DNA of 63,537 nucleotides, the filler included, from Folioceros fuciformis (Eukaryota): assembly GCA_049999805.1 (NCBI GenBank). It is 6 parts of 6 records of this genome, joined end to end, with 100 filler letters (N's around TTAATTAATTAA, not from the genome) between each part and the next. Parts side by side here need not be neighbours in the genome. Positions count along the whole stretch, not along the records: positions 1 to 15,476 come from JBNGIO010005241.1; 5 more parts are not named here. One strand, written 5' to 3'. Shown here piece by piece: positions 1 through 44,110 of this stretch. The notes under the pieces are model-generated. The model worked only from the letters and a program-made list of their open reading frames with translations, was not told the DNA's origin and did no database searches. Within the stretch, counting starts at the first letter, position 1, and every line of letters starts with the position of its first letter. The position numbers and the translations under genes are program-made.

Positions 1-3000
1 TCATTTACTCATCCGTACAGAGTACTGGTCCTTTGGATGTAAGGCAAACTTACATCTCGGGCGTGGGGTTGAGGGGAACAGTTATTAACAATCCTGCCAC
101 GTTCTACATCAATGCCCGTGACTCATTTGGCAATTCTAAAAATGATCCTGGAAGTTTTGGTGAGCCCTTCCGGGTCCGACTTTGCAAGTCGGGACTCTGC
201 AATCTAGGAATGATAACTGTTGTTGACAAGCACAACTGGGGGGGAAGGTATGGTGTAACGTATGTGACTCCTGAGCCTGGTAACTACTCGGTTTATGTGT
301 CATGGTTTGGAAAGGATGTGAAAGGTAGCCCTGCATTCGTGCCTGTTTTGGACTCCATAGGCATGAGAGTTCTTGATGCTTCCAAGTTTATAATCTGTGG
401 GGGATTTCCTTTTGTGGACACTTGCCCTGGACTTTTTGGTTCTGTTGCCAATGAGGAGACTATCATCAGTCTGGATGCGGCGGATGAAAACGGCATTCCA
501 CTGTATGCTGGCGGGGCCGTGCTCAATCTGATTATTGACCCCCCGCCATATTCTGGTAGTGTGCAAGATTTGGAGAATGGAACGTATATAGTATCCTATG
601 TCATCAATGTGGCTGGAAACTACAACCTGACGCTCAAGATTGATGACACGGCATTCCTGAATCAGTCTCTCACAGTATTGCCTGGAGCAACAAGCTCGAA
701 AACCACCCGGCTGTCTGCGCAAATACCACGTTCATGCTCGGTTGGGACTGTTTTCTCAAGCCTGATTATTCCTGTGGATGAGTGGCTGAATGAGCAGGTA
801 TATACATCATCCTATCCTTTGTCAAATGACAAGTTCTCATTGGTGGCTACACCTAGCACGGGAGAGCTTGCATACGGGATAACATCCGTGGCTGCCAATG
901 GCTCCCTGATTGCCTCCCTGACCGTCACAAGGGCTGGAGCTTACAACGTGTCATGCACACTTAATGGCGAACCTCTATCAGGTTAGCATTTTTCTCAACG
1001 AGTCCTGTTAGACTGAGCTGATTTCTGTCAATAAGATGAAGGCATCCAATGAGTTAATGCGTGTTTGTGATCTCAGGTTCCAGTTGGATGCCGGTGGACT
1101 TCTACCCTGGGCCTCCTGTGGCCCACAAGAGTACAGTTCGCTTCCGCCCAGAAACTGTAGCAGGTGCATTGGGCAGCATAACAATCTATCTTCAAGATTC
1201 CTATGGAAACGAGCTAAGTGAAGGAATCAATTGCAATGCCACAGTGTCCAGCATTGACTCTGGTGTAGAACTGAGTCCTCCAGTCTGCGCGACATCATCC
1301 TCTTCCACCTTAGAACTGCTGTTTAACATCACTGAAGCTGGAATATACAACGTAAGCTTCATCACTGTTGATGATTCTGGACTTGGTGCTGCATTTTACT
1401 GCAATGTCACGGTTGTAGCAGATCAACCCTCAGCAGACACATCTACTGTAGTGGGAGGACAGGGGCTTACTAGTACAGTTAGCGGAGCTGAAAGTGTCAT
1501 GCTAATTACATGCCTGGACAAATGGAACAACACATGCTCAGGGGATACGTCACGCGCATTTGTTGTTGTTTTGGAGACGGAAACACTTCCACCTGTTTAT
1601 CCGACAATTTCATCTAATAGCACCTCCCAGGATGGAACGTTGGAGTTGGTGGCAAATTACAGTGCCCTCTATCCTGGAAATTATTGTTGTCGGATCTTAA
1701 TAGGAGACAGAGATTTGAATGGCAGCCCTTTCATTGTGACTGCCCCTATTCTTCCATCGTCTGCAGAGAACTCGTTTGCGGTCATGGACTCTTTTGGTGG
1801 AAGACTGAATACCTCTCTGTCAAGTGCAACTTTGGTGGCAGGCAGTGTTGGCAAGCTGAAAGTGTTCATTCGAGATGTTCGTGGAAATATGCAAGACAAG
1901 TCAGTCATTGACACACTTGATGTTAGATTCTATGCTGATCCTTCAGGTTAGTGACTGTGCTTCTTTGCACCATTTCACAAGGCCACAACAAGTGATCAGT
2001 TCTAAGCATATGACTTACGTTCTTTGAACAGATGGACGCAGTAGAAGATTGCTTGTGATAAGACTTTAGATTGTTCGTTGTGATAAGACTCTGTTGAGAT
2101 TGACTGATAATTCCATTGCAGGACTTCCTGCTACATACCCAGCTGACTCTTTTCCTTCTTATGGCTACCGAGGACGTGGGGATGGAACGTATGAGGTCAC
2201 TTTTTCGGCTACGATGGCAAAGTGCTTTGATTCAGAGTTGGGTGCTCATTTTGATCTCCCATATTTTCTTACAATCAGCTTGGTCTACGGGAATGGCACA
2301 TCCCATCAGATATCTGGCAGCCCATTCAAGTATCGGCTTATCCCTAGTGAAGTGAATGTAGCAAAGACTGAGATTATCCTGGGACAGCAATGGGCAGATG
2401 GTCACGGTTTAAATTGGAGGGTCGACATACTACCAAAAGATGCCTTTGGGAATATTGGGAGGTTTGTGCCAGCCCTAAATGTATCAGCAGCTGTACACCC
2501 TGCTTACGAAGACAGGATTGCCTCGTCAGACGGTAGGTGACCTCGTAAAACTTGTCAGTGACTTAACGTTGTGAAGTGGCTGGGCGTGGTTGTAACTTGT
2601 TGGCTTTTTGCCTTGTGTCACATTATCCAGGTAAGGCGGAACAGCAATCGAAGAAAATGTGGTCAGCTCTATCTTTGGAAGACAGTAAGCTTTTCCTGGA
2701 GAACACGTCTTCAGGATATGCAGAGTTTCGTGACCTTCAGATATTAAGCAGCGGAGAAATGCTGGCGGAATATATTGCGGCACCTCCACTCATTGTGGAT
2801 AACTATGACGGGACATACACTCTCACCTTTTCTGTTATGGTTGCAGGATTCTATAACGTATCTTTGTTCATAAATGATCATCTCATCGGAGGACCATGGG
2901 TCACCCTGTGTTACTACAGAGTTGATGCAGGTCCTGTTGATGTCACTCGAATAAGGCCCAGTGGACAGGGCCTTGGGGACAACCTCACAATAGCAGGGCA

Positions 3001-6000
3001 GCCAAGTTCAATATTGCTACAACTCAGTGACAAGTTTGGCAATTTGTTGTCTGTCCCAAGTGAGAAATCTGCTGGTTACATTACTTACTTGGCAGCAAAA
3101 ATCAGTATCCGTCAGGTGAACAAAAATGGATTTGTTGACTACCATGGTCAAGATGCAAGTGCCTTCGCAAACATATCAACAGATGGAACTGGTGCCATTT
3201 GGTTATACTATCAACCATTGAAGAGTGGCCAGTTGTTCCTCGACTTGAGTTTCACGTCGAACCTCACACACTCGAAGGTTGTAGGGAGTCCTTTCGTTGG
3301 CAACGTTCTGCCTGGGGGTGTCCTTCCAGGCAACTGTATTGCTCGTGGATGTGGGTTAACTTCGGTTCTTGTTTGTACCAAACTGGCCTGCCCAAGCAAT
3401 CCCATCTTACTTCAGGTTCAGGATGGCCTAAATAATGTCCAAGGTTCTGATATTTATCCTGCCGTTTGCAAAGATTTGTCCATAACTGCTGATCCTAGTC
3501 TGGAGTTTAGCACTATTGTCCCCTTCAATGGACTATGCCTAGTCACGTACATAGCTAGGCAGGTATCTGTTGTAAATGTTTCCATCGAGTACGCTGGAAT
3601 CCCAATCGCTTTCAGCCCCTTTCAAGTTGTTGTCCGACCCAATGTGGGAGTCACTTCTCCGGAGAGGTGTGTAGCTACTGGCATCTTGGGGGGAATTATT
3701 GTTGCGGGCCAGATTGTAGCTATTAATGTGCAGTTGGTGGATGCGAATGGTGTCGCTTTGTTTCACAGTCCAGATCTCGGTAACAGCTTTGTAAGCTTGT
3801 CTCTAATCAACAGCAGCAATTTGGGTTCTTCGTCCCCTAGTTTTACATCACTGGATAATGGAAATGGAACTTTTTCTTTAGAGTTTCTGGCACAGAGTAC
3901 TGGACTGTATCATTTTAACATACTTGTTGGTGTGAAACAAATTCCGTTGGGCGGAAATAGAAATGGCTACACTCTACAGGTGCATCTTTTAAGTTTAATG
4001 ATGCATGATTGCTCTAAGTTGCCTCCCTTTTGAGAAACTTTGGCAGTATAAAATTTTCACAGCTTTCAAGCTTCATAATCAATGACTGCTGTGGACTGCC
4101 CTCCTTCTGATTAATCTCAGCACTATCAAATTTAACAAAATGTTGCGACAACAGCTTGACCAGACTCTGCCTGCAGGTGGTTTCAGGTCCCACGCTCGTA
4201 GAGAACACAGGTGTCAGGCTGGCGAGCAATTTAGCTGCCTACAGATCAGGCATAGATGAAATAATCATTGAAGTCCAGCCAGTGGACAGTTTTGGTAATC
4301 TGCAGGATTATATCGTCAGCTCCTTGGATTTTTTTGAGGCACAAATTTTGCAGCCAAATAGTGAGACTTTATACTCACCTCTGGTCCTCAGTTCTGGCAC
4401 CACCCTTTCTGGAATCCCGTATTATTTTTGGGTGCTGGAGTTTGTGCCTGTGCAAGCAGCGTTTGAAGGTGACCCTTGCGTGACAGCGTTCTGTTGAGAT
4501 GTACTCGCTCGTGTCTTTTGGTGGGTTCTCGAAGAAAGCTCAAAAAGACACGGTACCCCCTGCTGTTCACAGGTAGCCTTTACACGTTTAATTTTTTGTC
4601 GAGTAATGGGTCATCAACGGAATTGGTCCCTTCAAAAATCTCAGTTGTAACGTCTCCAGGAGTGCCATATATTCCAAATACTCAGGTATGCATTGGATGT
4701 ATTCATACCCTGAAAGCTTTTCACAAAGTGGCAACTGAAGCGTCATCCAAACGGTGTCCCAACGCAATTGCTTGTTGTCACTTCATCAAATGTGATGAAT
4801 TGTTTAGGGTAGAGCTTATGACACAGACAAGCACAGATACGTTCAAGTTCTGTTGACAGCTGTCTTTGACTCAGGTACTTGGTGAAGGGGCATCCATGGC
4901 ATTGGCAGGAGTTTTGACAACGTTTTTGGTACACCTCTACGATGAATTTGACAACCACATTACAAATTTCTCAGAGATTGCTGAGACTAAAATTTCTTTT
5001 AGTCTAAGGAGCTCTGTGCAGCAGAAATGCAGAGTTGTTTTTTGGCCAGCAGGTGCTATTTGCACATATGTTGCTCAAGCAAGTGGAATATACACTTTGG
5101 ATGTGACAGTTCGAGACTTGGGGACCAAACGGTTCCCTAACCTGCTTGTTGGTGCTGGCCCAGTGTTCACACCCTTCTGCAAAGCGTCTGGTGATGGAGT
5201 GGGTGGAGGTGCTCCCATCTATGCAGGCCTGTCAACCAGGTTAGCTGGGTTAATATAAGAAAAGAGCAGGGGTTCGCTAGTGGATCCTAATGCACAGAGA
5301 CAAAGGCATGCGTATGATGCATTGTGGTGACTGTGAGCCTTGCCTCTTGTCTTCATGTACACACAGGTTCACGATTGAGGTGTATGATGTACTTAACAAC
5401 ACCATATTAGATGCGGGAAGCTTGTTCAATGTGCTTCTTGAAAGTTTGGAAGATGTGAATGATCGATACTTTCAGCCAGATCCTATGTTCCCTTTGTGGA
5501 CGGGATCAGATTACGAAGTGTACTACACTCCTAGGATCGCTGGGTGGTCCTTGTTACATGTGACTAGAAGTTTTATGAATATCTCGGGTTCTCCGTTTTT
5601 TATTAAGGTTGCTGCTAGTAGTGTTGTGATTCGCAGTTTGCATGCTGTACCAAGCGGGCTGGACTTGACATTGTACCTTATTTTGCTGGTGGTCAGGTAC
5701 TTCCAGGTCCGGTGAGTGCGTTCACCTCAACAGTTGACCAAGCATCACTTGGACCATGTGTTTCTGGGGAGACCCATAATATCACTCTTCAGTCGAGAGA
5801 TAGTTCTGGAAACGTACGCCTATCAGATTCCGATGTGTTTCATATCACTAAAATTGTTGAGACTGCTCCAGACGAGTGGGCATCCGCTACGATGACCAGT
5901 CTTGGTCGTGGACTCTATGGGTTTAGCTATCTTTGTGTTCGTGCTGGTTCTAGCGAAGCACAGCCAAATGCTACTCAAATTGTGATCAAATACGGGGAGC

Positions 6001-9000
6001 TCGAGGTTGTAAACGTGGAACTTGCTGTCATTCCCGCTTCTGTTGATCTTTCAAAATGCACTGTAACTTTGAATGGCCACCGACATGCTATCACCATCAG
6101 CGAACCTGGTACCATATTGATAGTCAGCAGAGACTGGGCAGGGAACAGACTCTGGGGAGAGGCACTCAACTTTTGGGCGGTTCTGAAAACCGGTGACAGT
6201 AACGTAACTGCAACATTGAATGATACAATGGATGGCGCGTACCTACTGTCTTATACTCATACAGTCAGTGGCAATCACACTATTCTGGCCTTTCTTGATG
6301 AAGAGCTATTTTTCCAGGATTATGTTGTGGTTTACCCTGCTGATGCTGATGCTGAGAGTACAAAATTAATCTTCAATCCAAGTGGCTATACGGTTGGGAC
6401 CTGCCTCTTCCATATTCAGCTCTTTGACCAGTTTCATAACAACGTTTCAATTGATGCTCTGGTACGCTCAGGGCTGATGCTGATTGTAGCATCAGAAGAC
6501 ATCCCTCCAATTTTCGCTACCCCCAACCCTGTTGTTAACAGCAATGGATCACAATACGATGTGATTTTCACGACAAATCGTACAGGGGTTGTGCAAGTCC
6601 GGGTCAATGTCCTAGGGAAAACTGTCAGAGATCCTGATAACTTAGCTTTTCGTACACAAGTCCTGCCCGGCGATCCGGATCCTAGCAGATTTGTTCTTTT
6701 CGGAGCTGGCATCAAATCTGGTGGAATAGTGAATCAGGTATGTCATGTGTGGAAAAGTTGTGAAACCTGCCCTTGCAAGAGCTTTTCTGTTTTCCTTGTC
6801 TGGATTTCTGCTCTGTCGGGACAGGATCTCTTCAGTTTCTGACAAGAGCTTGCCGGTGTTATCTGATAGGCCACCCTTTTCTATGTCCGCATTAAGGATT
6901 CATTTAATAATACCGTGTTGACATGGCCTTCGAAGATCTTAACTGCTGCATTCAGTCCAGCGTTAGCTGTGACCAGCCCTCCTATCGTTGTGCAGATTGG
7001 TAATGGGACAGCTCAGGTTTCTTATGTGCCTGTCCTCACCATGGCAAACTTGGCAGTTTCCTTCATGTATGATGGGAAGGTGGTTGGACCTACGAGGTAA
7101 TTATCCAGTCATACAACAGCAGCCTGTGTCCGAATAGCAACCTTTGTTTTTATGGCGGTTCTAACATGATCTGTCTTGGCCCAGGTATGTGAGGGTGAAG
7201 TCGCAGGTTGGGTCATGGTCTGTGAAAGACAGTGTTGCCCTTGATTCTCTCGGAGTACCTATCGATCCATTACAACCGGTATTGGGAGTGGTTGGCACTG
7301 ACTTAATTCTGAGTATCCAGCCCCGAGATGCTGATGGCATCGATTTGCCTGGATCTCCAGACCCAGGCACTGTTGCATTTGCTGTTAGAATTGGAGACAG
7401 ATCATTCCCTGTTGGGCCAACGGAAAAGGGACCTTTTGGATTTATCGTGAATCTTTTGGTGTCTCAAAAGTATGTTGTGGAGATAACGTCCCTTGACGGC
7501 AGCATATCCATCAAAAACAGCGGATTTGTGGTGTTCCTCGTCCCTGGTCCTTCTCACCCTGCCAGGACTTTGTATCTGAAATCTGTGTCAACGGTTCTAA
7601 CCTATGCACCAGACACTTATACAGCAGACACGTTGTACAAGGAGGGTATGATGTTTCATGAGAATGATATCATTCAAGTAGGCGATGAGCTAGCTATTAC
7701 TCTGGTTCCATGTGACGAGTTTGGTAATCCCAAACTTTTCCAGCGGATAGAAGGTGGGGACGCATTCACTGCGCGAGCAGACCATGTTCCCAGTTCTTCC
7801 CTGAGCAGTTCCTCAGTCACGGTGAATAGTAGTGGTGCATTTCATGTTCTGTATTTCACACCGCGATTTGGAGGGATCTATGAATTGTCCATCTTCTTAA
7901 ATGGTGTACAAGTAAGAGCATTTTCCTTAGCAGTGGAGTCCTCCCGTATTGATCTCTCAGAATTTGTCTTGCGGCCGGTGGACGACATGGAAGCCGGGAG
8001 GCTTTTTGTTTTAGAGCTGGTAAACTATCTAGCTCCTCCGAGGTCTTTCCCATGTCATTGATTGCTTTTGAGAATGTTGATGCAGCTCGTGTTTTGTGCT
8101 TTCTGATGTATGTATGTATTTATGGCAGCATTACAACGGTGTCGACATCATTTCTAACTTGACTAAGCATCTATTTGTCGAGTTTCATTCCCCTGTGAGC
8201 GGTCTAAAGTTTTCAGCTGCCATGGAACCTACAGACAAGAGTTTCTCCTTCTCCATCTCAACCGTTATAACAGTTGCAGATGTCTATGACGTTATGCTTA
8301 TCGATTCTCAAACACAAATCACTGGAGAGGGTCCCTTGCCTACAGTAGTGGGATCAGTGCTGGTTGTTCCTGGAGATATTTCGAATTCGACCAGTACAGT
8401 AAATGTATCCCCTTCCTTCACTCGTGCGGGTGACGAAATTTTAGTCTCGGTAATAGGAAGAGATGTCTGTGGGAATTTGAACTGTTCTTTGCCGTCAGTT
8501 CTATCAAGTCCCCATTACTCACTGCAAGTGGACTTCGGCTGTACTGAGAATGCCTCTACGACTTTACAACTCTATTCTAAACCCAGGGAGTACTCTGGTT
8601 CTATTCGTTTCACTCCAACAAATCCTGGGTTGGTTGACATATCCATCAACTGGGTTGACACAGTCATAGAGGTTCAGATTGATGTCCTGAGTTATCATTC
8701 TCCTACTCTCATCGGTGCCATATTGTCCAATAATCTCAACAGAATAAAGGTCTTGTTTGACGAAGACACGGATAGTGGTAGGCTGGACTTTCCGAAGCCT
8801 ACGCATTGGATTTTCTGAATGTTCCGGGCTGCTTAGACTTTTGAGGACTTTGGTTGGGGCCATTTCTGTGCAGGCTATTTCAGTGGATCGTTCAACCTCA
8901 GTGGCGCAGATAGATGTGCAGCTTTTCTCGATGCGTCTGTTCTCCCAAAGCTCGGCTCAAACCCGTTGTGCACTTTCTATGATCCTAGGACTCTAATCAT

Positions 9001-12000
9001 TTCACTAGGATATGCTGCTCAAATTCTTGCTGGTGATTCCGGCTCCGGTGACTACATCACCATCAAGAGTGGCAGCATCTTTAATGCCGAGGGTAATACT
9101 GCTCCACTGTGGTTTTAGAAGTTGATCTGGAAAACTGCCTGGCATGCAGTGCCATTCATTGCAAACTCTTGGAAGAAAGCCAATGTTTGATGTGATGGTT
9201 GATGGTGACAAGCAGGTACTTCTGATCCTGTGAAAGGACAGGTCCCCTTGCAGCAGCCGAACAGTCCTGTTTCACCTGTTGCAAACCTCATTTGCCCAAC
9301 TTCAATTGGCCCCTGTGACCCCCTATTCCTGGATGCGTCAGCTTCATCTGGGTCAGGGGGACGTAACATGATATTCTCATATTCAGTACAGGGCTCTGGT
9401 GACCAAAGTATAGTAAATATTGTGAGAGCCATGTTGAGGAACACCCCTTCAGATCAAATGTGTGTTACGCTTGAGCCAGGCACTCTTCAGCAGGGTGAGA
9501 TCTATAAGTTCACAGTGACTGTGGTCAACTTTAGAGGAGACTCGGCCAGCACCTCCAGGAGTGTGAAGGCGACTGCAAGTCCGGTCCCTTTACTTTCCAT
9601 CTTCGGGTCTGATCAGGTGATGAATGAGGGATACTCTTGTACTGGTCCTCTACGCATTGAGCAGGTCGGGAAGTTGGTAGCAAATGTAACTCTGACCTTG
9701 TCATGGCTATCTGAAGCAGATCCGCATTGGCACCCGTTCTGAACTGATTCAAATTGAAGCAATTGGGACTCTTCCTTCCTCCAAGTCTGTTGATATATCT
9801 GGAAGATGCATTAATGGTTCTAGCACTGCTGCGGCTCTGTCCTCAACACTCGGTTATCAATGGTCACAGTCAGCAGGAAAACTACTTGACCTGAATGCCA
9901 CAATTGTCAATGAGCGTGTTTTGAGCATACCAGGGAGTCAGTTTGATACGGACAGTACCTATGCATTTATGGTTACATGCTACTTTGTTGGCTTCCCTTC
10001 ATCACAATCGACAGCCGAGATAAGTCTAGCCATAAAGTCTTCTTCCCTGTTATTGAGAATTATTGGTGGAAGTAGAAGTGTCAACTCATCTGAAAGCTTT
10101 ACGTTGGAAGCAGTGGTAATTGATCCAGATGATTCTGTAGATCCCTATGGCCTTCCTTACCAGATAAAGTATACCTGGAGGTGCGAACCTGATTTGGGGC
10201 CAAATGCCTTGTTCTTGTTTGAGAAGCAACCATCTAATGATTATGGAAGAATCATAACTGTACCTGCAGGAGTACTTGGCACTGGGACATACAACTTTTC
10301 GGTATTGACCCCTTGTAGTCTGCATGCATTATTTCAGTCTGTTGGCAATGTGTGCTAACAACCACACTTCTTCTTCCTCCTCCTCCTCTTCTTCTTCTTC
10401 TTCTTGTTTTTGTTTTTGTTTTTGTTTTTGTAGGTGACTGTGGACAAGGAACCATTAACTGAAGGAAGAACTGGAGTGACTGCATCATCCATTATTGATG
10501 CCAGTCCTTCTAATGTGCTCTCGGTATCTTTGGTTCTCCAGAATGCAGCACAATTTGCACACGGCATGTCCAGTGCTCAGCAGGTTATGCTGTGGTGTCT
10601 TTCCGATGGGCACGATTTCACTTGGTCCATCGAGTCAGGAACTGACAGGCGGACGTTTTCAGATATTACAGCTACTGCCGAGGGACAGGGTAGTCTTTTC
10701 CTTCCTCCGAACACATTAGTCGGAGGTGCTTCATATGCTGTCCTCTGTTCTGCCAAGTCAGAGGATGCTCAGGGTGTTGCGAAGGTTCACTTCTCAACGT
10801 GGTTTGATCCGTCTGGAGGCACTGTAACCCTAACCAGAGATCCACCTGATGGACCTGACATAGCTGGGCAGACACTTTATACGTTGGTGGCTTATGGATG
10901 GACGCAGGGTGAGGGGCAAGGAGCGCTACAGTACGAGTTCAGGTACATCACTGATAACAACACACAAACGGTCATCCAGCCTCTTTCGACAGTGAACTCA
11001 GCATTTGACTTCGTTGTCAGAGCTGGGTCGGTCACCTTCCAAGTCTATGTGGCAAATCCTGGCCTAATATCTGTCAGAAGTGAAGATGCTCCTCAGGGTA
11101 CCCTGTATCAGCTGCCAAGCATAATTGTGATGAACTCAGAATCCACAGGCACATCCTCTAAGGACACCAGGCGAAGTCTTGTGTCAGTGAATTCCCCAAA
11201 TCTTTTGTTGGGTAAGATTTTCATTGCAAGGGAGAGTGAAAAGCAATATTACAGTGCACTTCAGGTAATGGAGGTTTTCGGTTCAGAGTATATCGGGGAA
11301 GGTTCACTGAACTGCTCTCGTGATCCAAGCGTTGCCGAGGTGGTAAATGACATGCTCAGCATGATCTCTACCACAGACCCCCGGTACCCTCCCCCTTTTT
11401 TGAGTGACACAGTCTCATCAGGCACAGGACCTTATACAGCTCTTGCAGTCGCCTGTGCATACAGCAAGATTCTTGGCAGCCCAGGAAACATCGGCGACAA
11501 TGAACTCCACGCATCCTTAGGGATAATGGTCGACAAACTGCAGCAAGTTGCTCTTCATCGGCTTAATGTGCCATCTGTTTCAGGTGATAATGAGGTTTCA
11601 GTTTGTGCTTTCCGCATACATAATGCCCTGATTGTGAATGCCTTACCATGTACATATGTACCTGCCGTACTTGTGATGGCAGGGCAACCGTACAACCCCT
11701 GCTACTTTGATGCGGTTGATACCCTTCTGAATGCCATACATGCAGGGTGCACTGTGACCAGGGGCAGTCTCATGCATTTAGCCTCAAAAATGCCGATCCT
11801 TCTGGCACAGATTGTGGCAAACAGCGTCGGGTTCGGTGTGCAGTCTCCAAGCTATGTTTTCCGTCCAAGCTTCTCCCTTCTCTCCGCCCACAAACAGGTG
11901 TACGGAGAAGTTGCAACAGTCAACTTCACTGGAAGTGTCCAAAACTTCAAATTTGAAGTAGTTCATTCAACCCAGTTCCGAGGCAGTCTGAGCGCTGCTG

Positions 12001-12463
12001 TGGCATGCTTTCCATCTTTTTCACCCCTGTCAGCCGGAGAATGGATAACTGCCTACTTTTACAGGGATTTGCTGGCAATTCTCGAGGTGTGTGACTTTGC
12101 ATTACTGGGTCCAGAGGCCGGCCTCTCCCAAGTCGTCTCCTTACTTGTGTCCTTCACCAACCTAGTAGCTCCTCTCAACGACACCTTCAAAATCCTCCAC
12201 TTCACAAATGGCACTCTCAGTTTGGATGGCTTCACGGAAAGCAACTACAGGGATGGCACAGTGTCACTGCAGTTGATCAATCTCACTACAGATTATAACA
12301 CTTCATCTAGGCTGGTGCTAGCTCAGGTTGCTAGCCATGCATCAACCACCTTCTCATCAGGGATGCATAGCATCCTGTTACCTGGATTTGCTCTACTCGG
12401 GCTGCTGTGTTGGTGAACTTTCGTCGTGAACAGGATCTTCCGCTACAACCCGCAACTAGATGA
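1..12463 (+). CDS. Giant multi-exon filamin/Ig-like repeat + PKD/REJ-domain protein (5' truncated, >3460 aa)
   Basis: Consecutive + ORFs join in phase via GT-AG introns. Exons: <1-981, 1077-1946, 2122-2532, 2631-3979, 4177-4468, 4573-4685, 4875-5239, 5367-5607, 5697-6737, 6870-7096, 7185-8019, 8129-8777, 8874-9092, 9216-9616, 9720-10301, 10434-11583, 11683-12326, 12434-12463 (3466 codons from position 3). Many filamin-type motifs (RDSFGN, D..NGTY.VSY..AG.Y, I.GSPF). REJ-like motifs: CDPLFLDASASSGSGGR, IIGGSRSV..SFTLEA..IDPD..YTWRC, PSGGTVT..GWT..LQYEFRY. Confidence 0.85.
10366..10430 (+). repeat. Compound microsatellite (CTT/CCT)n-(GTTTTT)n in an intron polypyrimidine tract
   Basis: Directly visible just before the acceptor at 10433. 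Confidence 0.9.
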
Positions 12464-13035
12464 GATCAGGTCAGTCCCGTCCTTGTGCTCACTTTCTGGA
12501 GAAACGACTTCACAACCTTTGAGTCTCTTTGCCGGTGTCTTGAAGAAATATCGTGTGTGTTCCTGGAGTCCTTGCCTGGGGTCTCGAAGAAAAATCGTGT
12601 GTGCACTTCACACCATTTGGCTAGTGATCGCGACGCGAAGCTTTGAAAGAAGTGGAAGATGCTTGTAGGCAGGCAGTAAAATGATGTGGCAATTTTGTTT
12701 GTATGGATCACCCAGCACATTCTTATTGGCTCATGGTGAATTACATGGGCAATTTTAATTGGCAAATGGTACTTTTTAATATTTTTACTCATCTAAGTCA
12801 AAACGATTAAGGTGCATAGATTAAATATTATTTTTTATGTTAATATTATATTATATGATGGGATTATTTTCCTTTTTTTTTACTCATCTGTAGAAATATT
12901 TCCTTTTTTCCATTAATGTTACCTTTCTTAATAGAACTCTCCACTATGGGTTTTATCCTCAAAAGCTAATATTTATTGTTACTACTTGCTCACTAGTCAT
13001 GTATTGTCACTTTACGTAAACCCTAATACCTTACT

Positions 13036-13160
13036 ACTTCAAGCTTAGTATTGGATCAAAGGTGTTTGCCTCTATCTTGCAACTGTTTGTACTTTTTCAA
13101 GCTTAGTATGGATCAAGGGTGCTCGCATCTATATTGCAAGTGTTTGTACTTTTTCAACTT
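13036..13160. repeat. Imperfect ~60-bp tandem duplication
   Basis: ttcaagcttagta(t)ggatcaa..gtg...tctat.ttgcaa.tgtttgtactttttcaa occurs twice in tandem. Confidence 0.8.
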
Positions 13161-13421
13161 TTGCCCTCTATTTTGTTGTACATACGTAGGGTTTTCTTTT
13201 CTNNNNNNNNNNNNNNNNNNNNNNNNNNNNNNNNNNNNNNNNNNNNNNNNNNNNNNNNNNNNNNNNNNNNNNNNNNNNNNNNNNNNNNNNNNNNNNNNNN
13301 NNTCCGATTGTTTCTACTACTAATATTATAGGATTAATATTGTTATCGTGAAGTCGGAAGGGAGATTTAGGGCTAAGCTTTTTGATAAGAGGATTACGAG
13401 TTTCTAAATTGTATCCATAAC

Positions 13422-14555
13422 ATGAAGAGACCTTGTGACAACTCCTTGCCTAAGGCTTGCCCAAAGCAAAGGAGGATAGATTTGGTACCTAATAATATAG
13501 GGTCCAAAGATGAGGAAAATGTTAATTATAAGAATAGTCCTATGGAAGAATTTGAAGCACTTGAAGCACTCGAAGGATCCCAAAACATGGAGGAAGGTCT
13601 CGAAAAATCCAAAAACATGGAGGAAGGTCTTGAAAAACTCAAACTTGGAGAATCAACGCCTCCAAAGCGAGGTCGCGGACGCCCCAAAGGATCCAAAAGT
13701 AAAAGAAAATATATTTCAGAATTGGAATCCAAAAACATGGAGGAAGGTCTTGAAAAACTCAAACTTGGAGAATCAACACCTCCAAAGCGAGGTCGCGGAC
13801 GCCCCAAAGGATCCAAAAATAAAAGGAAATATATTTCAGAATTGGAAGGAGGAGTTGTGAAGAAGAATTTTAACAACATGGAAATCAAAACAAATGGAAG
13901 AGTGTACCACACAAGGGCTCACACTCGTGCTATGCTAGAAAGGGAGAGGAGTATGATTCCATCAACAGCCTCACAAATAACTCGTGCTGTGCTTGAAAGG
14001 CAAAAGAGTATGGCTCCATCAATAGCCGTAGAACTCGTGAACAAGACCCCACCAAATATGTCACAATACTTTGGTGTAAATGATGTTCCAACAAGAGAAG
14101 TAAATCAAACAACCATGTGGGTTTATTTTTTACAAAATGAATTGAATGAATGTATCATTCGGTTCCCTTGGGAAACAATGGACAAGGCCAGACCATATTT
14201 CTACAATGCCGGGCAAAATATGTCACAACAATCTCTTGTGAATGAAGCTCAAAATTGTGAGATGAGACAAGAGAATCAACTTTCAAATGAGCAATGTCCA
14301 TTGGACAAGTTAGACGTTCTTATGAATCACAATGCTTCATTAGAAGAAGTGAATCGATTTTCATGCGAGTGGAATTCCTTGGATGAATTGAATGTACAAG
14401 CATTCGAGGACAAGACTTTACAAGAAACAATTTCTCAAACTATTGAGAACAAAACATTGGAAGAAGAGACCCAATGGATTGACACTTTCCTTCGTAGACC
14501 AGAAAATTTTGTTAGCGATGATGTGTACCGGATCTTTGAGTTAGGAAAAGACTAA
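13422..14555 (+). CDS. AT-hook protein (two PPKRGRGRPKGS motifs), possibly transposon-associated or pseudogenised
   Basis: 377-aa ATG ORF with a near-exact 120-bp (40-aa) internal duplication, each copy carrying an RGRP AT-hook. AT-rich. The frame stays open for ~30 codons after the TAA. Confidence 0.55.
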   Translation: MKRPCDNSLPKACPKQRRIDLVPNNIGSKDEENVNYKNSPMEEFEALEALEGSQNMEEGLEKSKNMEEGLEKLKLGESTPPKRGRGRPKGSKSKRKYISELESKNMEEGLEKLKLGESTPPKRGRGRPKGSKNKRKYISELEGGVVKKNFNNMEIKTNGRVYHTRAHTRAMLERERSMIPSTASQITRAVLERQKSMAPSIAVELVNKTPPNMSQYFGVNDVPTREVNQTTMWVYFLQNELNECIIRFPWETMDKARPYFYNAGQNMSQQSLVNEAQNCEMRQENQLSNEQCPLDKLDVLMNHNASLEEVNRFSCEWNSLDELNVQAFEDKTLQETISQTIENKTLEEETQWIDTFLRRPENFVSDDVYRIFELGKD

Positions 14556-15476: not shown

Positions 15477-15576
15477 NNNNNNNNNNNNNNNNNNNNNNNN
15501 NNNNNNNNNNNNNNNNNNNNTTAATTAATTAANNNNNNNNNNNNNNNNNNNNNNNNNNNNNNNNNNNNNNNNNNNN
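15477..15576. other. Artificial scaffold linker (N44-TTAATTAATTAA-N44)
   Basis: Six-frame stop 12-mer at 15521-15532 between N runs. Confidence 0.95.
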
Positions 15577-24202: not shown

Positions 24203-24302
24203 NNNNNNNNNNNNNNNNNNNNNNNNNNNNNNNNNNNNNNNNNNNNTTAATTAATTAANNNNNNNNNNNNNNNNNNNNNNNNNNNNNNNNNNNNNNNNNN
24301 NN
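24203..24302. other. Artificial scaffold linker
   Basis: TTAATTAATTAA at 24247-24258 between N runs. Confidence 0.95.
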
Positions 24303-27743: not shown

Positions 27744-29260
27744 TCATTGGACCTTCATATATCTTATAAAGTCTCCTTCACTTGTTCCCCACTTGTCATA
27801 AAAATTGTGTAGCATACTTCTTCCTATGGAAACACATTGTGAAAATGTGCTTGCCATTGTGACATACATAATATCCCCTAGCTCTGCCCATATTGAAATT
27901 CGATTACTTTGTAAGTGCACTTTCTTCAACAAATTCTGTCTCCACACTTTTCGTACATGCCACAAGCATAATAATATAGGCATATTATGATTCCACACTG
28001 AACAAATAGCAAAAATCTTTACCTGACAATCATCAACAAGGAATGAACTAGGTGTCCAATCCTTGTTGATCTTTTCAACCTTCTTCCATAAAGCTGAAAG
28101 CCACCTGACAAGTGACTCAGTAGTAGCATCTTTTGTAATAGCCCATGCTACTAGAACATCGTTCAAGTAATGGTCAAAACCCATCACAATGAATAAGTGG
28201 TAGCAATTGCTGTTCAACCCAAAAGTTGTATCCACAGCTAGTATATTACCATTCCCGTAAAGCAACATGCAATTTAACATAAAAGGAGTTTGAATACCCA
28301 AAGCAAAAGGTTGATTCTCGCTTGATTGGTGGAAGACTATAGACACATTTTGCTCCAACCACAGGGACACTAATGTGGCATCATCCGGAGCTAGCTGCCA
28401 TTCACCAACTTCAACTTGTGTAAGTATATTGTGAACATTATATCTTTGCATATAATACACCTCTGTCTGATTGTTGATTCGAGCATATAATGCATCGGCA
28501 TCAAGATGCATTAGTTCATAAATAGGAACTTTGCAATATAGGCAATGCCTGATCCAATCCTTCTTTTTCTATGAAAGCTATGCTGCTTTGACATCACCAG
28601 GTAAGCCTTCGTACCTAGGCCCATGACATATAGCATTTGAAAGGTCAATATGCCTATGTTCCAAAAGACCAATCTCACCAACCGTAGGCCACACGAGAAA
28701 TTTCTTCACCCTAAAATTTGCTTGGCAACCATGCTTTGCACTCCCTCCATGGAGGACCTTATACTTAGCTGTATTAGCACCACGTGATACTCCCACCTCC
28801 TTTTGGCGAAAGTCTTCCGAGCCGAAAGAATACCAATACTTGCAAGCCAGCCTCACAATGTTAATGTATCCCTAAGTAATTAAACAATTTGCATACTTCA
28901 AACCTTCTTACGTAACATATGATGCAGTTGTATGCACTGTCGGTACTGTAGGGCGAGGTAAACTCCTTGGCCTCTTCGAAGTTTACCCCGGCCTCTTAGA
29001 ATCCTTCTTGTTGAAGTTCGTAGGATGGGAACTTATAGCACTCATTCCCCCAATAAAGTCTTCCACTCTAGAAAAGAGTATGTGAGCCACCTTCAATAAA
29101 GTCTTCCACTCTAGAAAAGAGTATGTGAGCCACCTTCAATAAAGTCTCCCACTCTAGAAAAGAGTATGTGAGCCACCTTCAATAAAGTCTCCCACTCTAG
29201 AAAAGAGTATGTGAGCCACCTTCACATGTTTTTGCTGCTCTGGTGACCTAGAATAGTCAT
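27744..29260 (-). mobile_element. Mutator-like (MULE) transposase pseudogene
   Basis: LAVDTTFGLN..HLFIVMGFD..VAWAI..FLVDD..LLCLWHVRKVW (MULE DDE core). Upstream GCQANFRVK..H.D..ICHG and VAHILFSRVEDFI. Broken by stops and truncated. Confidence 0.8.
29051..29223. repeat. 43-bp tandem repeat x4 inside the MULE 5' coding region
   Basis: caataaagtc(t/c)..actctagaaaagagtatgtgagccacctt starts at 29051, 29094, 29137 and 29180. Confidence 0.92.
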
Positions 29261-30652: not shown

Positions 30653-33437
30653 TCAAGAATCGTCTCCACAAGAACATACCCCATCCTTAAACTGATGGAC
30701 TCGGTGAGCATCCCGGATCACGATCTCTCGCTGTTCAACCCTGGAGACGATCTTGGTACCGCTATGGCAATGTTTGCACATTCGAAGATTTTTAGTGATC
30801 AGAAGTGGTGTGCCAGAATGTGTATTAAGCAGACCAAAGGCTAAGGCCAGTTTCTCAGCATGTCCACAGAGAGCATCCTCTCTCTCATCACCTGCAACTG
30901 GCATCACCAATCCTGGATGAAGAACGCTTCCCTGCTCCAGCTTTTGATTTAGACTGCGCAGCTTGGAAGAAATATTATCCGTCTTGTCTCCCACAACAAA
31001 TTCATAGACACGCTTCTCCACTTCAATGATTGCCTTTGCAGGCTTCTTTTGAGCACCAGCAGATTTCCTCATCTGGTCTATCATGTTTGCTTCCTCCCAC
31101 CTGCCAGCATCTGCATACATATTCGACATGAGCATATAGCTAGCAGCCTGTTGAGGTTCATGTTTCAATAGCTGATTGAAGCAGCACCTTCCAAGTTCCA
31201 CATTCCCATGCTTTCTGCACGCAGTTAGCAAAGACGTCCAACCCACACTGTCATGCCTAAACGGCATGCTTCGCAGAAAATGTTCCGCATCATACAAGTA
31301 GCCTGCACGGCCCATAACGTCAACCATGCAGTTGTAGTGCTCAACCGAGGGAGTGAAACCATATGTTTCTGTCATTGCTTTAAAATATTGCTGAGCTGCA
31401 TTCACCAAGCCCACATGACTGCAGGCTGCAAGAAGGGATGTGAATGTCTTCGCATCAGGTTCAATGTCACGTTGTCGCATCTCCTCGAAACAGCGGATGG
31501 CCATTTGACACTCGTTCTGCTGACCATAGCCGTGAATCAGTGCTGTCCATGTTGCAACATCTCTATCTGGCAACCTATCAAACACACACTGTGCCTCAAC
31601 CAGGCTCCCAAATTCAGCATACATGTGCACCAAGGTGTTACCAATCAGGATGTCGGCCTCAAGCCCTCTTTCAAGGATCTGCACATGAATCTGCCTACCC
31701 TGTTCTCTAGCCCCAGAGCTGGCTAACAGTTTCAGAATGCTGACATATGTCACTAAGTCCGGGGCAATCCCCTCATCGCGCATGCTCATGAATAAATCTA
31801 GAGATTGTTGATGGAGCCCTGCCTGAGCGTACCCAGCTATCATGGCATTCCACGCCACCACGTCCTTGATGACCAGCTTGTCGAACACTGTGCGAGCATC
31901 CCCAAAACTCCCACACTTGGCATACATGTCAACCATGGAGCTGGCGACAAATGGGTCTGCGTCCAAACCTAGTTCTCGAATATGCGCACATATTCTCTCT
32001 CCCTCCTGCACGGCACCTACACTGCTACATGCTTTCAGAATGCTCACAAATGTGATCTGATCTGGCATTGTGCAGGTCTGCAGCATGAAGCTGTAAATCA
32101 TCAGAGCCTCATGCCCATACCCATGCTGAGCATATCCAGCAATCATTGTATTCCATGTAACCACATCTTTGGTTGACAATCTATCAAACATGCTGCGAGC
32201 CTCTTCCAAGCTCCGGCATTTTGCATACATGTCCACAAGGGTGTTACCCATGGAGACATAAGCTTCTTCAAGACCTCGCTCGAGAACATGAGCGTGAATC
32301 TCCTTGCCTTTCTGCAATGCCCCAGTCCTCGCACACGCTTTAAGGATGGACACAAAAGTGACCTTGTTAGCTGCTGTCGTACCAGCATTTTGCATCCTCT
32401 CGTAGAGACTAAGGGCTTCTTGCCCTTGCCCATGCTGAGCATAGGCAGAAATCATGGCACTCCAAGTCACCACATTCTTGGACGGCAACCTGTCAAAAAC
32501 TTTGCGAGCCTCAGCGACACTTCCACATTTAGCATACATGTCCACTAGGGTATTGGCAACAGACAGATGTGAACAGAAACTACTGTTAAGGACATCTGCG
32601 TGAACCATCTTCCCCGACGCCAAATCCCCTGTGCTAGCACAAGCTTTAAGAACCGCTACAAGAACATGATTAGTGGGCTTGGCATCTGCCTGCCGCATCT
32701 TCTTGTACAGATGCACAACGTCCTTCGCCTGCCCGTGTTCACCATGGGCTAATATGATAGAATCCCACATGAACGTGTCTGGTACTGGTATTTTCTTGAA
32801 AACTTTGCTTGCTTCCAGCAGATTCCCATGGGATGCATACATGCGGATGACATGGTTGGCTACAAAAGAATTGCAGTCGTACCCAGTCATCACTGAGAAG
32901 GCATGTATCCGTCTCCCAACGTCCCAATCCTTCTTCTCAATGCTCTTTTTGAGCAAATGGAACAGCATCTGTACGGATACACCACTTCTCCGCACGTACA
33001 GACTCTCCACTGCTTGGAAGGCCTCCTCAAGCCTTCCTTTGTCGCAATGCTCCTTCCAGACTGGAGACTCTGATGAGCCCTCATCCCTGCAGATCCTGCA
33101 TAGCCCAAAAATCAATTGTCACGGCAACCATGTCTGCTCTCTGCACTCCATGCCTCATGCTACAGGGTACGTCCTATAGTTGGATCAACCTTCAGGGCAA
33201 AAAAATGAAATCATGCAGTGGCCAGAAAGGGGATCAATACCTGGCAGACGTTTCAACAACACATCCATCGTGGCCACGGACTGCACTGTAGGCCGGCTCT
33301 AGCTCAGGCACTGGGTATGTTGCTGTGAGCATGTGTAGCAGGCATCTCATGTGAAGGATCCTGTGACCAGCCTTGTTCAACCGAAGGAAAGTTAAAGTTC
33401 CGGAGTGCACAGTGTGGCGGTAACCCGGCGCCAGCAT
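30653..33437 (-). CDS. PLS-class PPR protein with E1/E2 and a DYW:KP-type deaminase domain (organellar RNA editing factor)
   Basis: Exons 33437-33241 and 33095-30653 (phase-2 GT-AG intron; 879 aa). About 17 P/L/S motifs, then KKPAKAIIEV..FVVGD, LCGHAEKLALAFGL, KNLRMCKHCH and HQFKDGVCSCGDDS*. Confidence 0.93.
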
Positions 33438-33797
33438 CGCCCCCGCCCCGAGCTTGCTTTCGTCGATTCAAACCAAACCAATTGGAAAGCGTGAAATCCA
33501 TAATGCGTCTGCAAGAGTTGTTGCAACAGCGAGGCCTTGTCGCGGCCGAAGTCGGGCATCAGACCTTCGGTAGACGTGATGGGATGCTTTTGAGTTACCA
33601 TGGTGTACATCAATGAAATTGGAAACTTCACTCTAATTGGCATAACTAGGGCTATATACCCTGGTTTGTGGGCGGTTAGTCTGCTCTGGAGTCTGTATGA
33701 GCAGTGGGATCGTGATTGCTGAGACAGGGTAGCTGAATTGGCTGAAGTAGAGACATCGGAGGCAAGGCAGTCAGCAAGAGTGCTCGGCTGAAGAGCC

Positions 33798-41162: not shown

Positions 41163-41262
41163 NNNNNNNNNNNNNNNNNNNNNNNNNNNNNNNNNNNNNN
41201 NNNNNNTTAATTAATTAANNNNNNNNNNNNNNNNNNNNNNNNNNNNNNNNNNNNNNNNNNNN
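41163..41262. other. Artificial scaffold linker
   Basis: TTAATTAATTAA at 41207-41218. Confidence 0.95.
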
Positions 41263-44108: not shown

Positions 44109-44110
44109 GT

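What the first reader, a model, noticed from the sequence alone, without database searches (positions are those of the whole stretch)
1..12463. Giant (>3460 aa) filamin/Ig-repeat + REJ protein: possible gamete or flagellar adhesion receptor
Seen: an intact in-phase model of at least 18 exons, with a long array of filamin-type repeats rich in N-x-S/T sites and Cys (suggesting an extracellular location) followed by a REJ-like module. No GPS, PLAT or multi-TM channel part is visible. Established: filamin-repeat ectodomains occur in the gamete adhesion protein GEX2 (FUS1 has related Ig-like repeats); REJ modules occur in sea-urchin sperm receptors for egg jelly and polycystin-1. Inference: this fusion could be a motile-sperm or egg surface protein of a flagellate-sperm plant.
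Basis: partly seen in the sequence, partly recalled or inferred. Interest (0 to 1): 0.75.

Follow-up and report, generated by a model that had tools for sequence, protein, structure and literature searches.

The report
Giant plant Ig-repeat REJ surface protein
This is an intact gene from a non-seed land plant for a very large, probably cell-surface glycoprotein built like the outer part of animal polycystin-1 or the sea-urchin sperm receptor for egg jelly, a type of protein not yet studied in land plants.

Summary
Window 1-12416 (+) carries one uninterrupted multi-exon reading frame. My model has 17 exons, 16 of 16 introns GT-AG, and 3490 aa, with the 5' end cut by the window edge. Pfam finds Filamin repeats and a REJ module above the curated cut-offs. 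A repeat profile built from the protein itself finds 18 clear filamin-type Ig repeats, room for about 24.

New here:
- Behind REJ, the predicted fold is a helical bundle plus a beta-sandwich. It matches adhesion-GPCR GAIN domains (BAI3, E 5e-6) but has no GPS/HL-T motif.
- The protein ends in a 14-17-residue hydrophobic tail that looks like a GPI-anchor signal.
- There is no PLAT domain and no multi-pass membrane part.
- N-glycosylation sequons are twice the number expected (57 against 29.4).

So it resembles a polycystin-1/SpREJ1-type ectodomain without the channel-like half.

Relatives are very rare: 9 hits among 1.84 billion representative proteins. The only named one is a Marchantia paleacea hypothetical protein. 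There is no sign of retention across angiosperms.

The gamete-receptor idea stays an untested analogy: I had no expression data and no N-terminus. I call it a new variant of a known kind, of moderate to high interest.

The parts
1..12416 (+). Gene body, 5'-truncated by the window edge. 17 exons: 3-981, 1077-1946, 2122-2532, 2631-3979, 4177-4468, 4573-4685, 4860-5239, 5367-5607, 5697-6737, 6870-7096, 7185-8019, 8129-8777, 8874-9092, 9216-9616, 9720-10301, 10434-11583, 11683-12416. Stop TGA at 12414-12416. 3490 aa are visible.
   Evidence: Chain search and manual refinement. All 16 introns are GT-AG and the spliced frame has no stop.
3..8777 (+). Array of filamin-type Ig-like repeats (exons 1-12, aa 1-2462). 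18 repeats are clearly detected. Gaps in the map leave room for about 24.
   Evidence: Pfam Filamin is above its cut-off in 4 of 15 ORF pieces. A profile built iteratively from the protein's own repeats gives 18 domains with i-Evalue <1e-12 (circular, used for counting only). Exon 1 matches Dictyostelium gelation factor 1wlh_A at E 1.2e-11. P0010 is collinear with exons 1-4.
8874..11133 (+). REJ module (exons 13-15 and the first ~233 codons of exon 16). The part supported by Pfam runs from about 9362 to 10974.
   Evidence: REJ PF02010 scores 37.5, 34.9 and 17.9 bits on exact exons. tblastn of the M. paleacea REJ protein P0001 aligns to 8582-12164. hhalign to the REJ part of P0007 gives prob 94.4, E 8.5e-8. 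AF2 predicts beta-strands for residues 26-233 of the ORF.
11196..12329 (+). GAIN-like region. The helical subdomain is at about 11196-11825, interrupted by intron 16. The beta-sandwich subdomain is at about 11850-12329. It holds the family-conserved CF..SPL and CDF(A/V) motifs but no HL-T.
   Evidence: The AF2 model (pLDDT 60.9) has helices at 255-464 and strands at 473-632. Foldseek matches BAI3 GAIN+HormR 4dlo_B at rank 2 (E 5.2e-6, TMt 0.41, 336 columns) and BAI2 8oek at rank 28. No Pfam GPS or GAIN hit at E<=10.
11584..11682 (+). In-frame 99-nt intron 16 (CAG|GTGATA ... GGCAG|GG) with no stop codon.
   Evidence: Homologues P0001 and P0004 lack these 33 residues, and P0002 diverges exactly at this point. 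The splice sites were read. The AF2 model has pLDDT <50 across residues 378-421.
12363..12413 (+). C-terminal hydrophobic tail (17 aa, 14 of them strongly hydrophobic). It follows a Ser/Thr/Gly/Ala-rich linker. It looks like a GPI-attachment signal or a tail anchor with no cytoplasmic domain.
   Evidence: Sequence read. The AF2 model is unstructured at 637-660. No GPI predictor was available, so this is inference.
10302..10433 (+). Intron 15, containing CTT and GTTTTT simple repeats.
   Evidence: Homologue alignment places the junction at ...YNFS|VTVDKEP.

Best explanation
The gene encodes a giant secreted, membrane-tethered glycoprotein. It is laid out like the ectodomain of polycystin-1 or of the sea-urchin sperm receptor SpREJ1, but it has no channel-like membrane half.

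Layout, from the outside in:
- A rod of about two dozen filamin-type Ig repeats. At roughly 4 nm per Ig domain (recalled figure), this would reach on the order of 100 nm.
- A REJ module.
- A GAIN-like domain that has lost the autoproteolytic GPS motif.
- A short Ser/Thr-rich linker.
- A hydrophobic C-terminal tail that most likely directs GPI anchoring.

Proposed working: the Ig rod presents binding surfaces far from the cell and can bear or transmit tension. The REJ/GAIN-like stalk sits next to the membrane. Because there is no cytoplasmic part, the protein must act either by adhesion alone or through a partner in the same membrane.

Shown here: gene integrity, the Filamin and REJ domains, sequon enrichment, the lack of PLAT and TM domains, and the rarity of relatives.

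Inferred: the GAIN-like fold (from a low-confidence model), the GPI anchor, the extracellular location, and the adhesive or mechanical role.
For: - The frame is intact over 17 exons and 3490 codons.
- Filamin and REJ are above the Pfam cut-offs.
- There are 18 clear Ig repeats.
- There are 57 sequons against 29.4 +/- 4.6, and 0 of 2000 shuffles reached 57. Short-range Cys pairs sit inside the repeats (sequence).
- After REJ, AF2 predicts a helical bundle and then a beta-sandwich in the window protein. The same order appears in the M. paleacea homologue.
- Foldseek matches BAI3 and BAI2 GAIN domains at E 5.2e-6 and 8.3e-5, TMt 0.41 and 0.40.
- The relative P0007, which I judged alga-like by eye (no call names its taxon), has REJ, then about 365 aa, then a Pfam GPS motif (28.8 bits) and a hydrophobic stretch that I read as a TM segment. 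This shows the REJ-GAIN/GPS order within the 9-hit relative set.
- The hydrophobic C-terminal tail comes directly before the stop codon.
- PKD1-family background comes from passages of PMC1934368: REJ, GPS, 1-11 TM; SpREJ1 and SpREJ2 have only one or two TM.
Against: - The N-terminus is missing, so no signal peptide can be shown.
- The GAIN assignment rests on one model of mean pLDDT 60.9 and TM-scores of about 0.4.
- The repeat with the M. paleacea homologue (pLDDT 57.0) gave only Ig/FnIII arrays and complement/alpha-2-macroglobulin-type chains, plus two S-layer proteins and one nuclear-pore entry, among the top-ranked chains listed. No GAIN entry was among them.
- No GPS or GAIN family is found by Pfam at E<=10.
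- Profile comparison to P0007 aligns only the REJ part.
- A family profile finds nothing significant among PDB sequences.
- The hydrophobic tail is not seen in homologues P0001 and P0004, which end in Pro-rich or basic tails. Those gene models may be wrong, or they may be paralogues.
- No GPI predictor was run.
Confidence: 0.6

Rival explanations
1. One reading: a sperm, egg or flagellar surface receptor for gamete recognition or adhesion in a plant with swimming sperm. It would be the plant counterpart of SpREJ1/PKDREJ combined with a FUS1/GEX2-type Ig array.
For: - REJ proteins are tied to male gametes in several distant lineages. Sea-urchin SpREJ1 sits on the acrosomal and flagellar membrane (PMC1934368 passages). 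A male-gamete-specific REJ+GPS protein in Ectocarpus is under positive selection (PMC4700764 passages). REJ-like GGC proteins lie at the male gamete attachment site in Cryptosporidium (preprint 10.64898/2026.10.13.757955 passages).
- Ig-array adhesins FUS1 and GEX2 mediate gamete adhesion in green plants (PMC12069490 and 10.1101/2021.09.03.458930 passages).
- The Ig region scores 0.96 to clusters carrying Filamin and Ig_GEX2_N.
- Relatives are very few, and the one named relative is a liverwort.
- The low identity between relatives (28-31% to M. paleacea) would fit a fast-evolving protein.
Against: - I saw no expression or localisation data of any kind.
- Rarity in databases may partly reflect poor annotation of a 17+-exon giant gene.
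Confidence: 0.25
2. A vegetative extracellular-matrix or cell-wall to plasma-membrane tether. Examples would be a role in rhizoids, mucilage or substrate adhesion, or in wall-integrity mechanosensing, with no special role in gametes.
For: - The architecture is the same as for the best explanation.
- GPI-type tails are common on plant wall-associated proteins (established knowledge, recalled).
- The M. paleacea homologue carries a poly-proline stretch typical of hydroxyproline-rich wall glycoproteins after the GAIN-like region.
- In polycystin-1, the Ig-like repeats and REJ are discussed as elastic, force-bearing elements (PMC1934368 passage).
Against: - A general wall-integrity function would be expected to persist in seed plants. 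Yet only 9 relatives were found in the exhaustive search.
- I saw no expression data either way.
Confidence: 0.25
3. It is the bryophyte-grade orthologue of GEX2, lengthened by extra repeats.
For: - Ig_GEX2_N PF23616 scores 29.4 bits (cut-off 27) in one ORF piece and 38.2 bits in homologue P0010.
- The Atlas feature neighbours carry Filamin plus Ig_GEX2_N.
Against: - In 3 other pieces Ig_GEX2_N is below its cut-off. In two of the four pieces with an Ig_GEX2_N hit (1 and 4), a stronger Filamin hit covers the same residues, so at least these look like cross-hits within one Ig clan.
- GEX2 and FUS1 are described as single-pass proteins with seven Ig-like domains (PMC12069490 passage). This protein has 18 or more repeats plus REJ plus a GAIN-like region, and no TM segment with a cytoplasmic tail.
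- No GEX2 sequence was available to compare directly.
Confidence: 0.05
4. A cytoplasmic filamin-like actin cross-linker, or a dead gene or assembly artefact.
For: - Filamin repeats were first known from cytoplasmic actin cross-linkers. The best solved match is Dictyostelium gelation factor.
- The window is a stitched pseudo-scaffold.
Against: - The REJ module is described in ectodomains of membrane proteins (passage).
- Sequons are twice the expected number.
- The 237 extra N-terminal residues of homologue P0010 show no actin-binding family.
- 3490 codons stay open across 16 canonical introns.
- The stretch 1-12463 has no gap.
Confidence: 0.03

Closest known systems
Polycystin-1 (PKD1) ectodomain
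   Same: The order of parts matches: a long tandem array of Ig-like repeats, then a REJ module, then a GAIN-type domain next to the membrane. It is heavily glycosylated. REJ is above the Pfam cut-off and there is a GAIN-like fold match.
   Different: - The Ig repeats are filamin type, not PKD type.
- There are no LRR, WSC, lectin or LDL-A modules in the visible part.
- There is no GPS HL-T motif, no PLAT domain and no 11-TM region.
- It ends in a short hydrophobic tail.
Sea-urchin SpREJ1 (suREJ1) sperm receptor for egg jelly
   Same: [quoted passage not shown] Both are heavily glycosylated.
   Different: - SpREJ1 carries C-type lectin and EGF modules rather than an Ig array.
- SpREJ1 has a GPS.
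- SpREJ1 is far smaller: 210 kDa per the paper, against more than 370 kDa of polypeptide here (my estimate from 3490 aa).
GEX2 / FUS1 gamete adhesion proteins
   Same: The ectodomain is made of filamin/invasin-class Ig-like repeats. There are marginal Ig_GEX2_N hits. The nearest Atlas clusters carry Filamin plus Ig_GEX2_N.
   Different: - GEX2 and FUS1 have seven Ig-like domains, a single-pass TM segment and a cytoplasmic tail (PMC12069490 passage).
- They have no REJ or GAIN-like part.
- GEX2 is kept in angiosperms, whereas the C-terminal module of this protein has only 9 relatives.
Chlamydomonas MST1 (mastigoneme subunit, anchored on PKD2)
   Same: Both are green-lineage extracellular glycoproteins built from tandem Ig-like domains. 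MST1 is linked to the polycystin system and ends in a polyproline helix (PMC10602792 passages). The M. paleacea homologue has a poly-Pro stretch after the GAIN-like region.
   Different: - MST1 has nine Ig plus six Sushi domains and no REJ.
- No sequence comparison with MST1 was made here.
- The window protein itself has no poly-Pro tail.
Marchantia paleacea hypothetical protein Mapa_000092 (P0001), the closest named sequence
   Same: It is collinear with window 8582-12164: last Ig repeat, REJ and the GAIN-like region. Identity is 28-31%, E 3.2e-48. Its REJ scores 105.6 bits.
   Different: - It is only 1190 aa as annotated, with no long Ig array, so it is probably a truncated model or a paralogue.
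- It has a Pro-rich, basic C-terminus instead of a hydrophobic tail.

Membership tests
PKD1 / REJ protein family (polycystin-1, PKDREJ, SpREJ) | REJ module (Pfam PF02010) | tested here: met
   38.6 and 33.5 bits (cut-off 25) on ORF pieces. 37.5 and 34.9 bits on exact exons 15 and 16, and 17.9 bits on exon 14.
PKD1 / REJ protein family (polycystin-1, PKDREJ, SpREJ) | GPS motif with an HL-T autoproteolysis site upstream of the first TM | tested here: not met
   No GPS PF01825 hit at E<=10 on exon 17, exon 16 or homologue P0004. No HLT is seen in the beta-sandwich sequence. Relative P0007 does have GPS at 28.8 bits.
PKD1 / REJ protein family (polycystin-1, PKDREJ, SpREJ) | PLAT/LH2 domain after the first TM | tested here: not met
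   No PLAT hit. The CDS stops at 12416, directly after the hydrophobic tail.
PKD1 / REJ protein family (polycystin-1, PKDREJ, SpREJ) | Multi-pass (up to 11 TM) membrane region | tested here: not met
   A Kyte-Doolittle 19-residue scan finds no TM-like segment apart from beta-strand regions of Ig repeats and the 14-17-aa C-terminal tail. The ORFs at 12417-13200 look non-coding. A 100-N gap at 13203 leaves a small doubt.
PKD1 / REJ protein family (polycystin-1, PKDREJ, SpREJ) | Six conserved cysteines of the REJ module | not tested
   Several Cys are conserved between the window protein and P0001. No reference REJ alignment was available to map the six positions.
GAIN domain (adhesion GPCR / PKD1 type) | Helical subdomain A followed by beta-sandwich subdomain B | tested here: inconclusive
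   AF2 gives helices 255-464 and strands 473-632, but mean pLDDT is 60.9. Foldseek matches BAI3 4dlo_B (E 5.2e-6, TMt 0.41) and BAI2 8oek (E 8.3e-5, TMt 0.40). The replicate with P0001 shows the same secondary-structure order but no GAIN entry among the top-ranked chains listed.
Filamin-repeat (PF00630) Ig array proteins | Filamin/ABP280 repeat HMM matches | tested here: met
   86.1, 63.7, 44.6 and 28.9 bits (cut-off 26.9) in 4 of 15 pieces; 21.3 bits in a fifth. Gelation factor 1wlh_A matches at E 1.2e-11.
True filamins (actin cross-linkers) | N-terminal calponin-homology actin-binding domain, cytoplasmic location | not testable with these tools
   The 5' end lies outside the window. Homologue P0010 adds 237 N-terminal residues with only Filamin and Ig_GEX2_N hits, but it may itself be truncated.
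GEX2 / FUS1 gamete adhesion family | GEX2 N-terminal Ig-like domain (PF23616) | tested here: inconclusive
   29.4 bits (cut-off 27) in 1 of 15 pieces. 25.4, 23.7 and 17.1 bits in three others. In pieces 1 and 4 a stronger Filamin hit covers the same residues.
GEX2 / FUS1 gamete adhesion family | Seven Ig-like domains, a single-pass TM and a cytoplasmic tail | tested here: not met
   There are 18 or more repeats, a REJ module and a GAIN-like part, and no cytoplasmic tail. The family definition comes from a PMC12069490 passage.
GPI-anchored surface proteins | N-terminal signal peptide | not testable with these tools
   The 5' end of the gene is outside the window.
GPI-anchored surface proteins | C-terminal signal: small omega-site residues, a short polar spacer and a hydrophobic tail at the very C-terminus | tested here: inconclusive
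   Read by eye only: a Ser/Thr/Gly/Ala-rich stretch, then 14 hydrophobic residues ending at the stop codon. No GPI predictor was on hand. The tail is not conserved in P0001 or P0004.

The most novel reading that the evidence does not exclude
Plants with swimming sperm keep a polycystin-1/SpREJ-type ectodomain protein (Ig rod, REJ and an uncleavable GAIN-like domain, lipid-anchored) that seed plants with pollen-tube delivery have lost. It sits on the sperm or egg surface as the receptor for the partner gamete or for archegonial mucilage. If so, REJ-based gamete recognition would be an ancient eukaryotic device shared by animals, brown algae, apicomplexans and land plants.
Probability: 0.2. Interest if true: 0.8.

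Novelty: new variant of a known kind. Interest (0 to 1): 0.58.

Why it matters
REJ-module proteins are central to sperm-egg signalling in sea urchins and mammals, and to kidney disease through polycystin-1. They have recently been tied to male gametes in brown algae and Cryptosporidium.

I found no paper on a land-plant REJ protein:
- None of the 32 papers holding 'REJ domain' has a land-plant title.
- surfaced none.
- A survey of plant filamin-domain genes describes only proteins with 1-2 filamin domains (PMC9777546 passages).

This gene gives plant reproductive biology a concrete, testable candidate. Orthologues could be knocked out in Marchantia or moss. It also offers a natural 'ectodomain-only' version of the polycystin-1 design for asking what the Ig-REJ-GAIN stalk does without a channel partner. 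If expression turns out to be vegetative, it would still be an unusual giant wall-membrane tether limited to non-seed plants.

Tried and rejected
1. Whole-length homologue search. Single-exon queries were used instead, so full-length relatives above 3300 aa or 2245 aa could not appear there. The exhaustive scan has no length limit and found none.

The taxa of P0002-P0009 stay unknown.

3. Sequence-level proof of GAIN/GPS all came out negative:
- Pfam at E<=10.
- hhalign of the family against P0007, which aligned only REJ.
- The family profile against PDB sequences, where the best hit had E 0.92.

4. Replicating the GAIN fold hit with the full M. paleacea homologue. The model was poor (pLDDT 57.0, pTM 0.31). 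The top-ranked Foldseek matches listed were Ig/FnIII arrays and complement/alpha-2-macroglobulin-type chains, plus two S-layer proteins and one nuclear-pore entry, with no GAIN entry.

5. First automatic gene models chose wrong junctions at exons 6/7, 7/8, 14/15 and 15/16, and missed intron 16. These were corrected from splice sites and homologues.

6. Literature searches linking REJ or polycystin with bryophyte or fern sperm found nothing relevant. The 'rej' word-start search was polluted by 'reject'.

7. The organism was not identified to species. The neighbouring ANKRD13 gene gives 83% identity to an unnamed protein and 60-66% to bryophytes, lycophytes and ferns alike.

8. Collections not used:
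- Genome contigs holds only bacteria and archaea, so it was not used.
- No supplementary files were read. Expression tables in supplements of bryophyte antheridium and sperm transcriptome papers could bear on the gamete claim.


Full report
**What is in the sequence**

The + strand from the first bases of the window to 12416 holds a chain of long open frames separated by short interruptions.

- A splice-site plus codon-usage chain search gave a first model. I then corrected it by hand at five places, using splice-site inspection and alignment to homologues.
- The result has 17 exons. All 16 introns are GT-AG, 88-197 nt long (mean 121).
- The CDS is 10,473 nt, giving 3490 codons with no internal stop and ending at TGA 12414-12416.
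- The gene starts outside the window. Homologue P0010 is collinear with exons 1-4 and has 237 more residues upstream, so the real protein is longer.
The 33 residues it would encode are absent from P0001 and P0004. P0002 diverges exactly there, and the AF2 model is disordered across it.
- Junctions of exons 5-8 have no homologue support and are the least sure.
- The stretch contains no N.

**Domains**

Pfam was run on 15 ORF pieces.

- Filamin PF00630 scores 86.1, 63.7, 44.6 and 28.9 bits (cut-off 26.9) and 21.3 bits in a fifth piece.
- REJ PF02010 scores 38.6 and 33.5 bits (cut-off 25) and 17.0 in a third piece.
- Ig_GEX2_N scores 29.4 bits (cut-off 27) in one piece and is below the cut-off in three. 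In pieces 1 and 4 a stronger Filamin hit covers the same residues.
- On exact exons, REJ scores 37.5, 34.9 and 17.9 bits.
- A profile grown from the protein's own repeats finds 18 clear repeats between aa 12 and 2429. That method is circular and was used only for counting. The gaps in the map leave room for about 24 repeats.
- Exon 1 matches Dictyostelium gelation factor among solved structures (E 1.2e-11).
- The language-model atlas puts the Ig region next to Filamin/Ig_GEX2_N/Invasin_D3 clusters (0.96). It puts the C-terminal ORF next to REJ clusters (0.79-0.81, which is a lead only).

**The part after REJ**

AF2 was run on the 660-aa last ORF with a 10-row alignment (mean pLDDT 60.9, pTM 0.54).

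- It predicts beta-domains at residues 26-233, a helical bundle at 255-464 and a beta-sandwich at 473-632. The last 24 residues are unstructured.
- Foldseek against the PDB lists the BAI3 GAIN+HormR crystal structure at rank 2 (E 5.2e-6, prob 1.00, TMt 0.41, 336 columns) and BAI2 HormR-GAIN at rank 28 (E 8.3e-5, TMt 0.40). Most other listed hits are FnIII tandems matching the REJ-type beta-domains, with some complement-like chains.
- The order 'REJ, then helical subdomain, then beta-sandwich' is that of the GAIN domain in PKD1-family proteins.
- The relative P0007, which looks algal to me by eye (no call names its taxon), has REJ (100.1 bits), then about 365 residues, then a Pfam GPS motif (28.8 bits) and a hydrophobic stretch that I read as a TM segment.

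Evidence against the GAIN reading:

- No GPS or GAIN family appears at E<=10.
- hhalign to P0007 covers only the REJ part (prob 94.4).
- The family profile finds nothing significant among PDB sequences.
- A second model, of the M. paleacea homologue, was poor (pLDDT 57.0). It shows the same order of secondary structure, but no GAIN entry appears among the top-ranked chains listed.

I therefore call the region GAIN-like at moderate confidence. The HL-T cleavage motif is absent. The plant relatives share the motifs CF..SPL and CD(F/V) in this sandwich.

**The C-terminus and topology**

- The protein ends, directly before the stop, in a 17-residue tail. Fourteen of those residues are strongly hydrophobic, and the tail follows a Ser/Thr/Gly/Ala-rich linker.
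- With no cytoplasmic residues behind it, this looks like a GPI-attachment signal or a bare tail anchor. No predictor was available, and P0001 and P0004 end differently, in Pro-rich or basic tails.
- There are 57 N-glycosylation sequons against 29.4 +/- 4.6 in 2000 shuffles. None reached 57; the maximum was 45.
- Cys residues often lie in close pairs within repeats (sequence).
- No PLAT domain and no multi-pass region exist.
- Downstream, 12417-13200 is AT-richer (GC 0.39) and has only short, non-coding-looking ORFs.

**Relatives and organism**

- An exhaustive phmmer scan of 1.84 billion representative proteins with the C-terminal ORF found 9 proteins at E<=1e-3. Of these, 4 are at E<=1e-10 and 2 at E<=1e-30.
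- They are a 402-aa fragment at 63% identity (P0002), the 1190-aa Marchantia paleacea hypothetical protein Mapa_000092 at 31% (P0001, also the single hit), five short fragments, and two more distant REJ proteins (P0007, P0009).
- The Ig region found P0010 (31% identity, 1493 aa) and a Kelch-filamin protein. That search was limited to proteins of 787-2245 aa.
- Neighbouring genes show a land plant: PPR-DYW and BURP, among others.
- The neighbouring ANKRD13 gene is 83% identical to an unnamed protein. It is 60-66% identical to proteins of a liverwort (Calypogeia, 66%), Sphagnum, Physcomitrium, Diphasiastrum, Selaginella and ferns.
- The source is therefore a non-seed land plant not represented among the named proteins.
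- With so few relatives, retention across angiosperms can be excluded for the REJ/GAIN-like module.

**Interpretation**

The best-supported reading (0.6) is a giant, glycosylated, membrane-tethered surface protein with the layout of a polycystin-1/SpREJ1 ectodomain. It has an Ig rod, a REJ module and a GAIN-like stalk, but no channel-like half and no GPS cleavage. It would work by adhesion or force transmission, or through a partner in the same membrane.

Whether it acts on gametes (0.25) or in vegetative tissue (0.25) cannot be decided here.

- For the gamete reading: REJ proteins recur on male gametes in sea urchins, brown algae and Cryptosporidium (passages read). FUS1 and GEX2 are Ig-array gamete adhesins. 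The family's distribution is restricted.
- Against it: I saw no expression data, and most SpREJ genes are broadly expressed.

It is not a GEX2 orthologue by architecture, and a cytoplasmic filamin or a pseudogene is very unlikely.

**Novelty**

- Among the 32 papers holding 'REJ domain', none has a land-plant title.
- Searches pairing REJ or polycystin with bryophyte or fern reproduction found nothing relevant.
- A survey of plant filamin-domain genes reports only proteins with 1-2 filamin domains (passages).
- Both the REJ module and the Ig-array type are known. What is new is their combination with an uncleavable GAIN-like domain and a lipid-anchor-like tail, in non-seed plants. I therefore rate it a new variant of a known kind.

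Noticed in passing
window 15477-15576, 24203-24302, 41163-41262, 47759-47858, 61674-61773: Five gaps have the form 44 N, TTAATTAATTAA, 44 N. That is a six-frame stop linker, so the window is a pseudo-scaffold of artificially joined contigs. Gene neighbourhood beyond about 13.2 kb is not proven synteny. There are 21 N runs in all, 1360 N.
   Followed up: partly
window 13389-14555 (+): A 388-aa open frame with two tandem copies of a unit carrying an AT-hook-like RGRGRPKGSK motif (motif name recalled). No Pfam family at E<=0.001.
   Followed up: no
window 30653-33118 (-): An intron-less 821-aa PPR protein with E motif and DYW deaminase domain, an organelle RNA-editing-factor type.
   Followed up: no
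window 27744-28568 (-) and 42063-42662 (-): Transposon remnants: a MULE transposase domain, and a retroviral-polymerase SH3-like domain from a retroelement.
   Followed up: no
window 37060-39129 (-): An ANKRD13-type ankyrin protein on a single 689-aa open frame. It was used for placing the organism: 83% to an unnamed protein, 66% to Calypogeia fissa, 60-64% to mosses, lycophytes and ferns.
   Followed up: yes
window 33792-34634 (+), 53420-54235 (-), 57121-58659 (-): Further genes: an FAD_binding_4 oxidoreductase fragment, a bVLRF1-plus-ankyrin protein, and a BURP-domain protein.
   Followed up: no
window 44001-48000: Strong positive GC skew (0.33 and 0.23) with overlapping open frames on both strands. 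The one ORF scanned there (45477-46190) has no Pfam hit.
   Followed up: no
P0001 residues ~1085-1110; P0004 C-terminus: The M. paleacea homologue has a poly-proline stretch after the GAIN-like region, and P0004 ends in a basic Pro/Lys-rich tail. The window protein has a hydrophobic tail instead. The family may use different anchors, or those gene models may be wrong at the 3' end.
   Followed up: partly
window 10302-10433: Intron 15 is filled with CTT and GTTTTT simple-sequence repeats.
   Followed up: no
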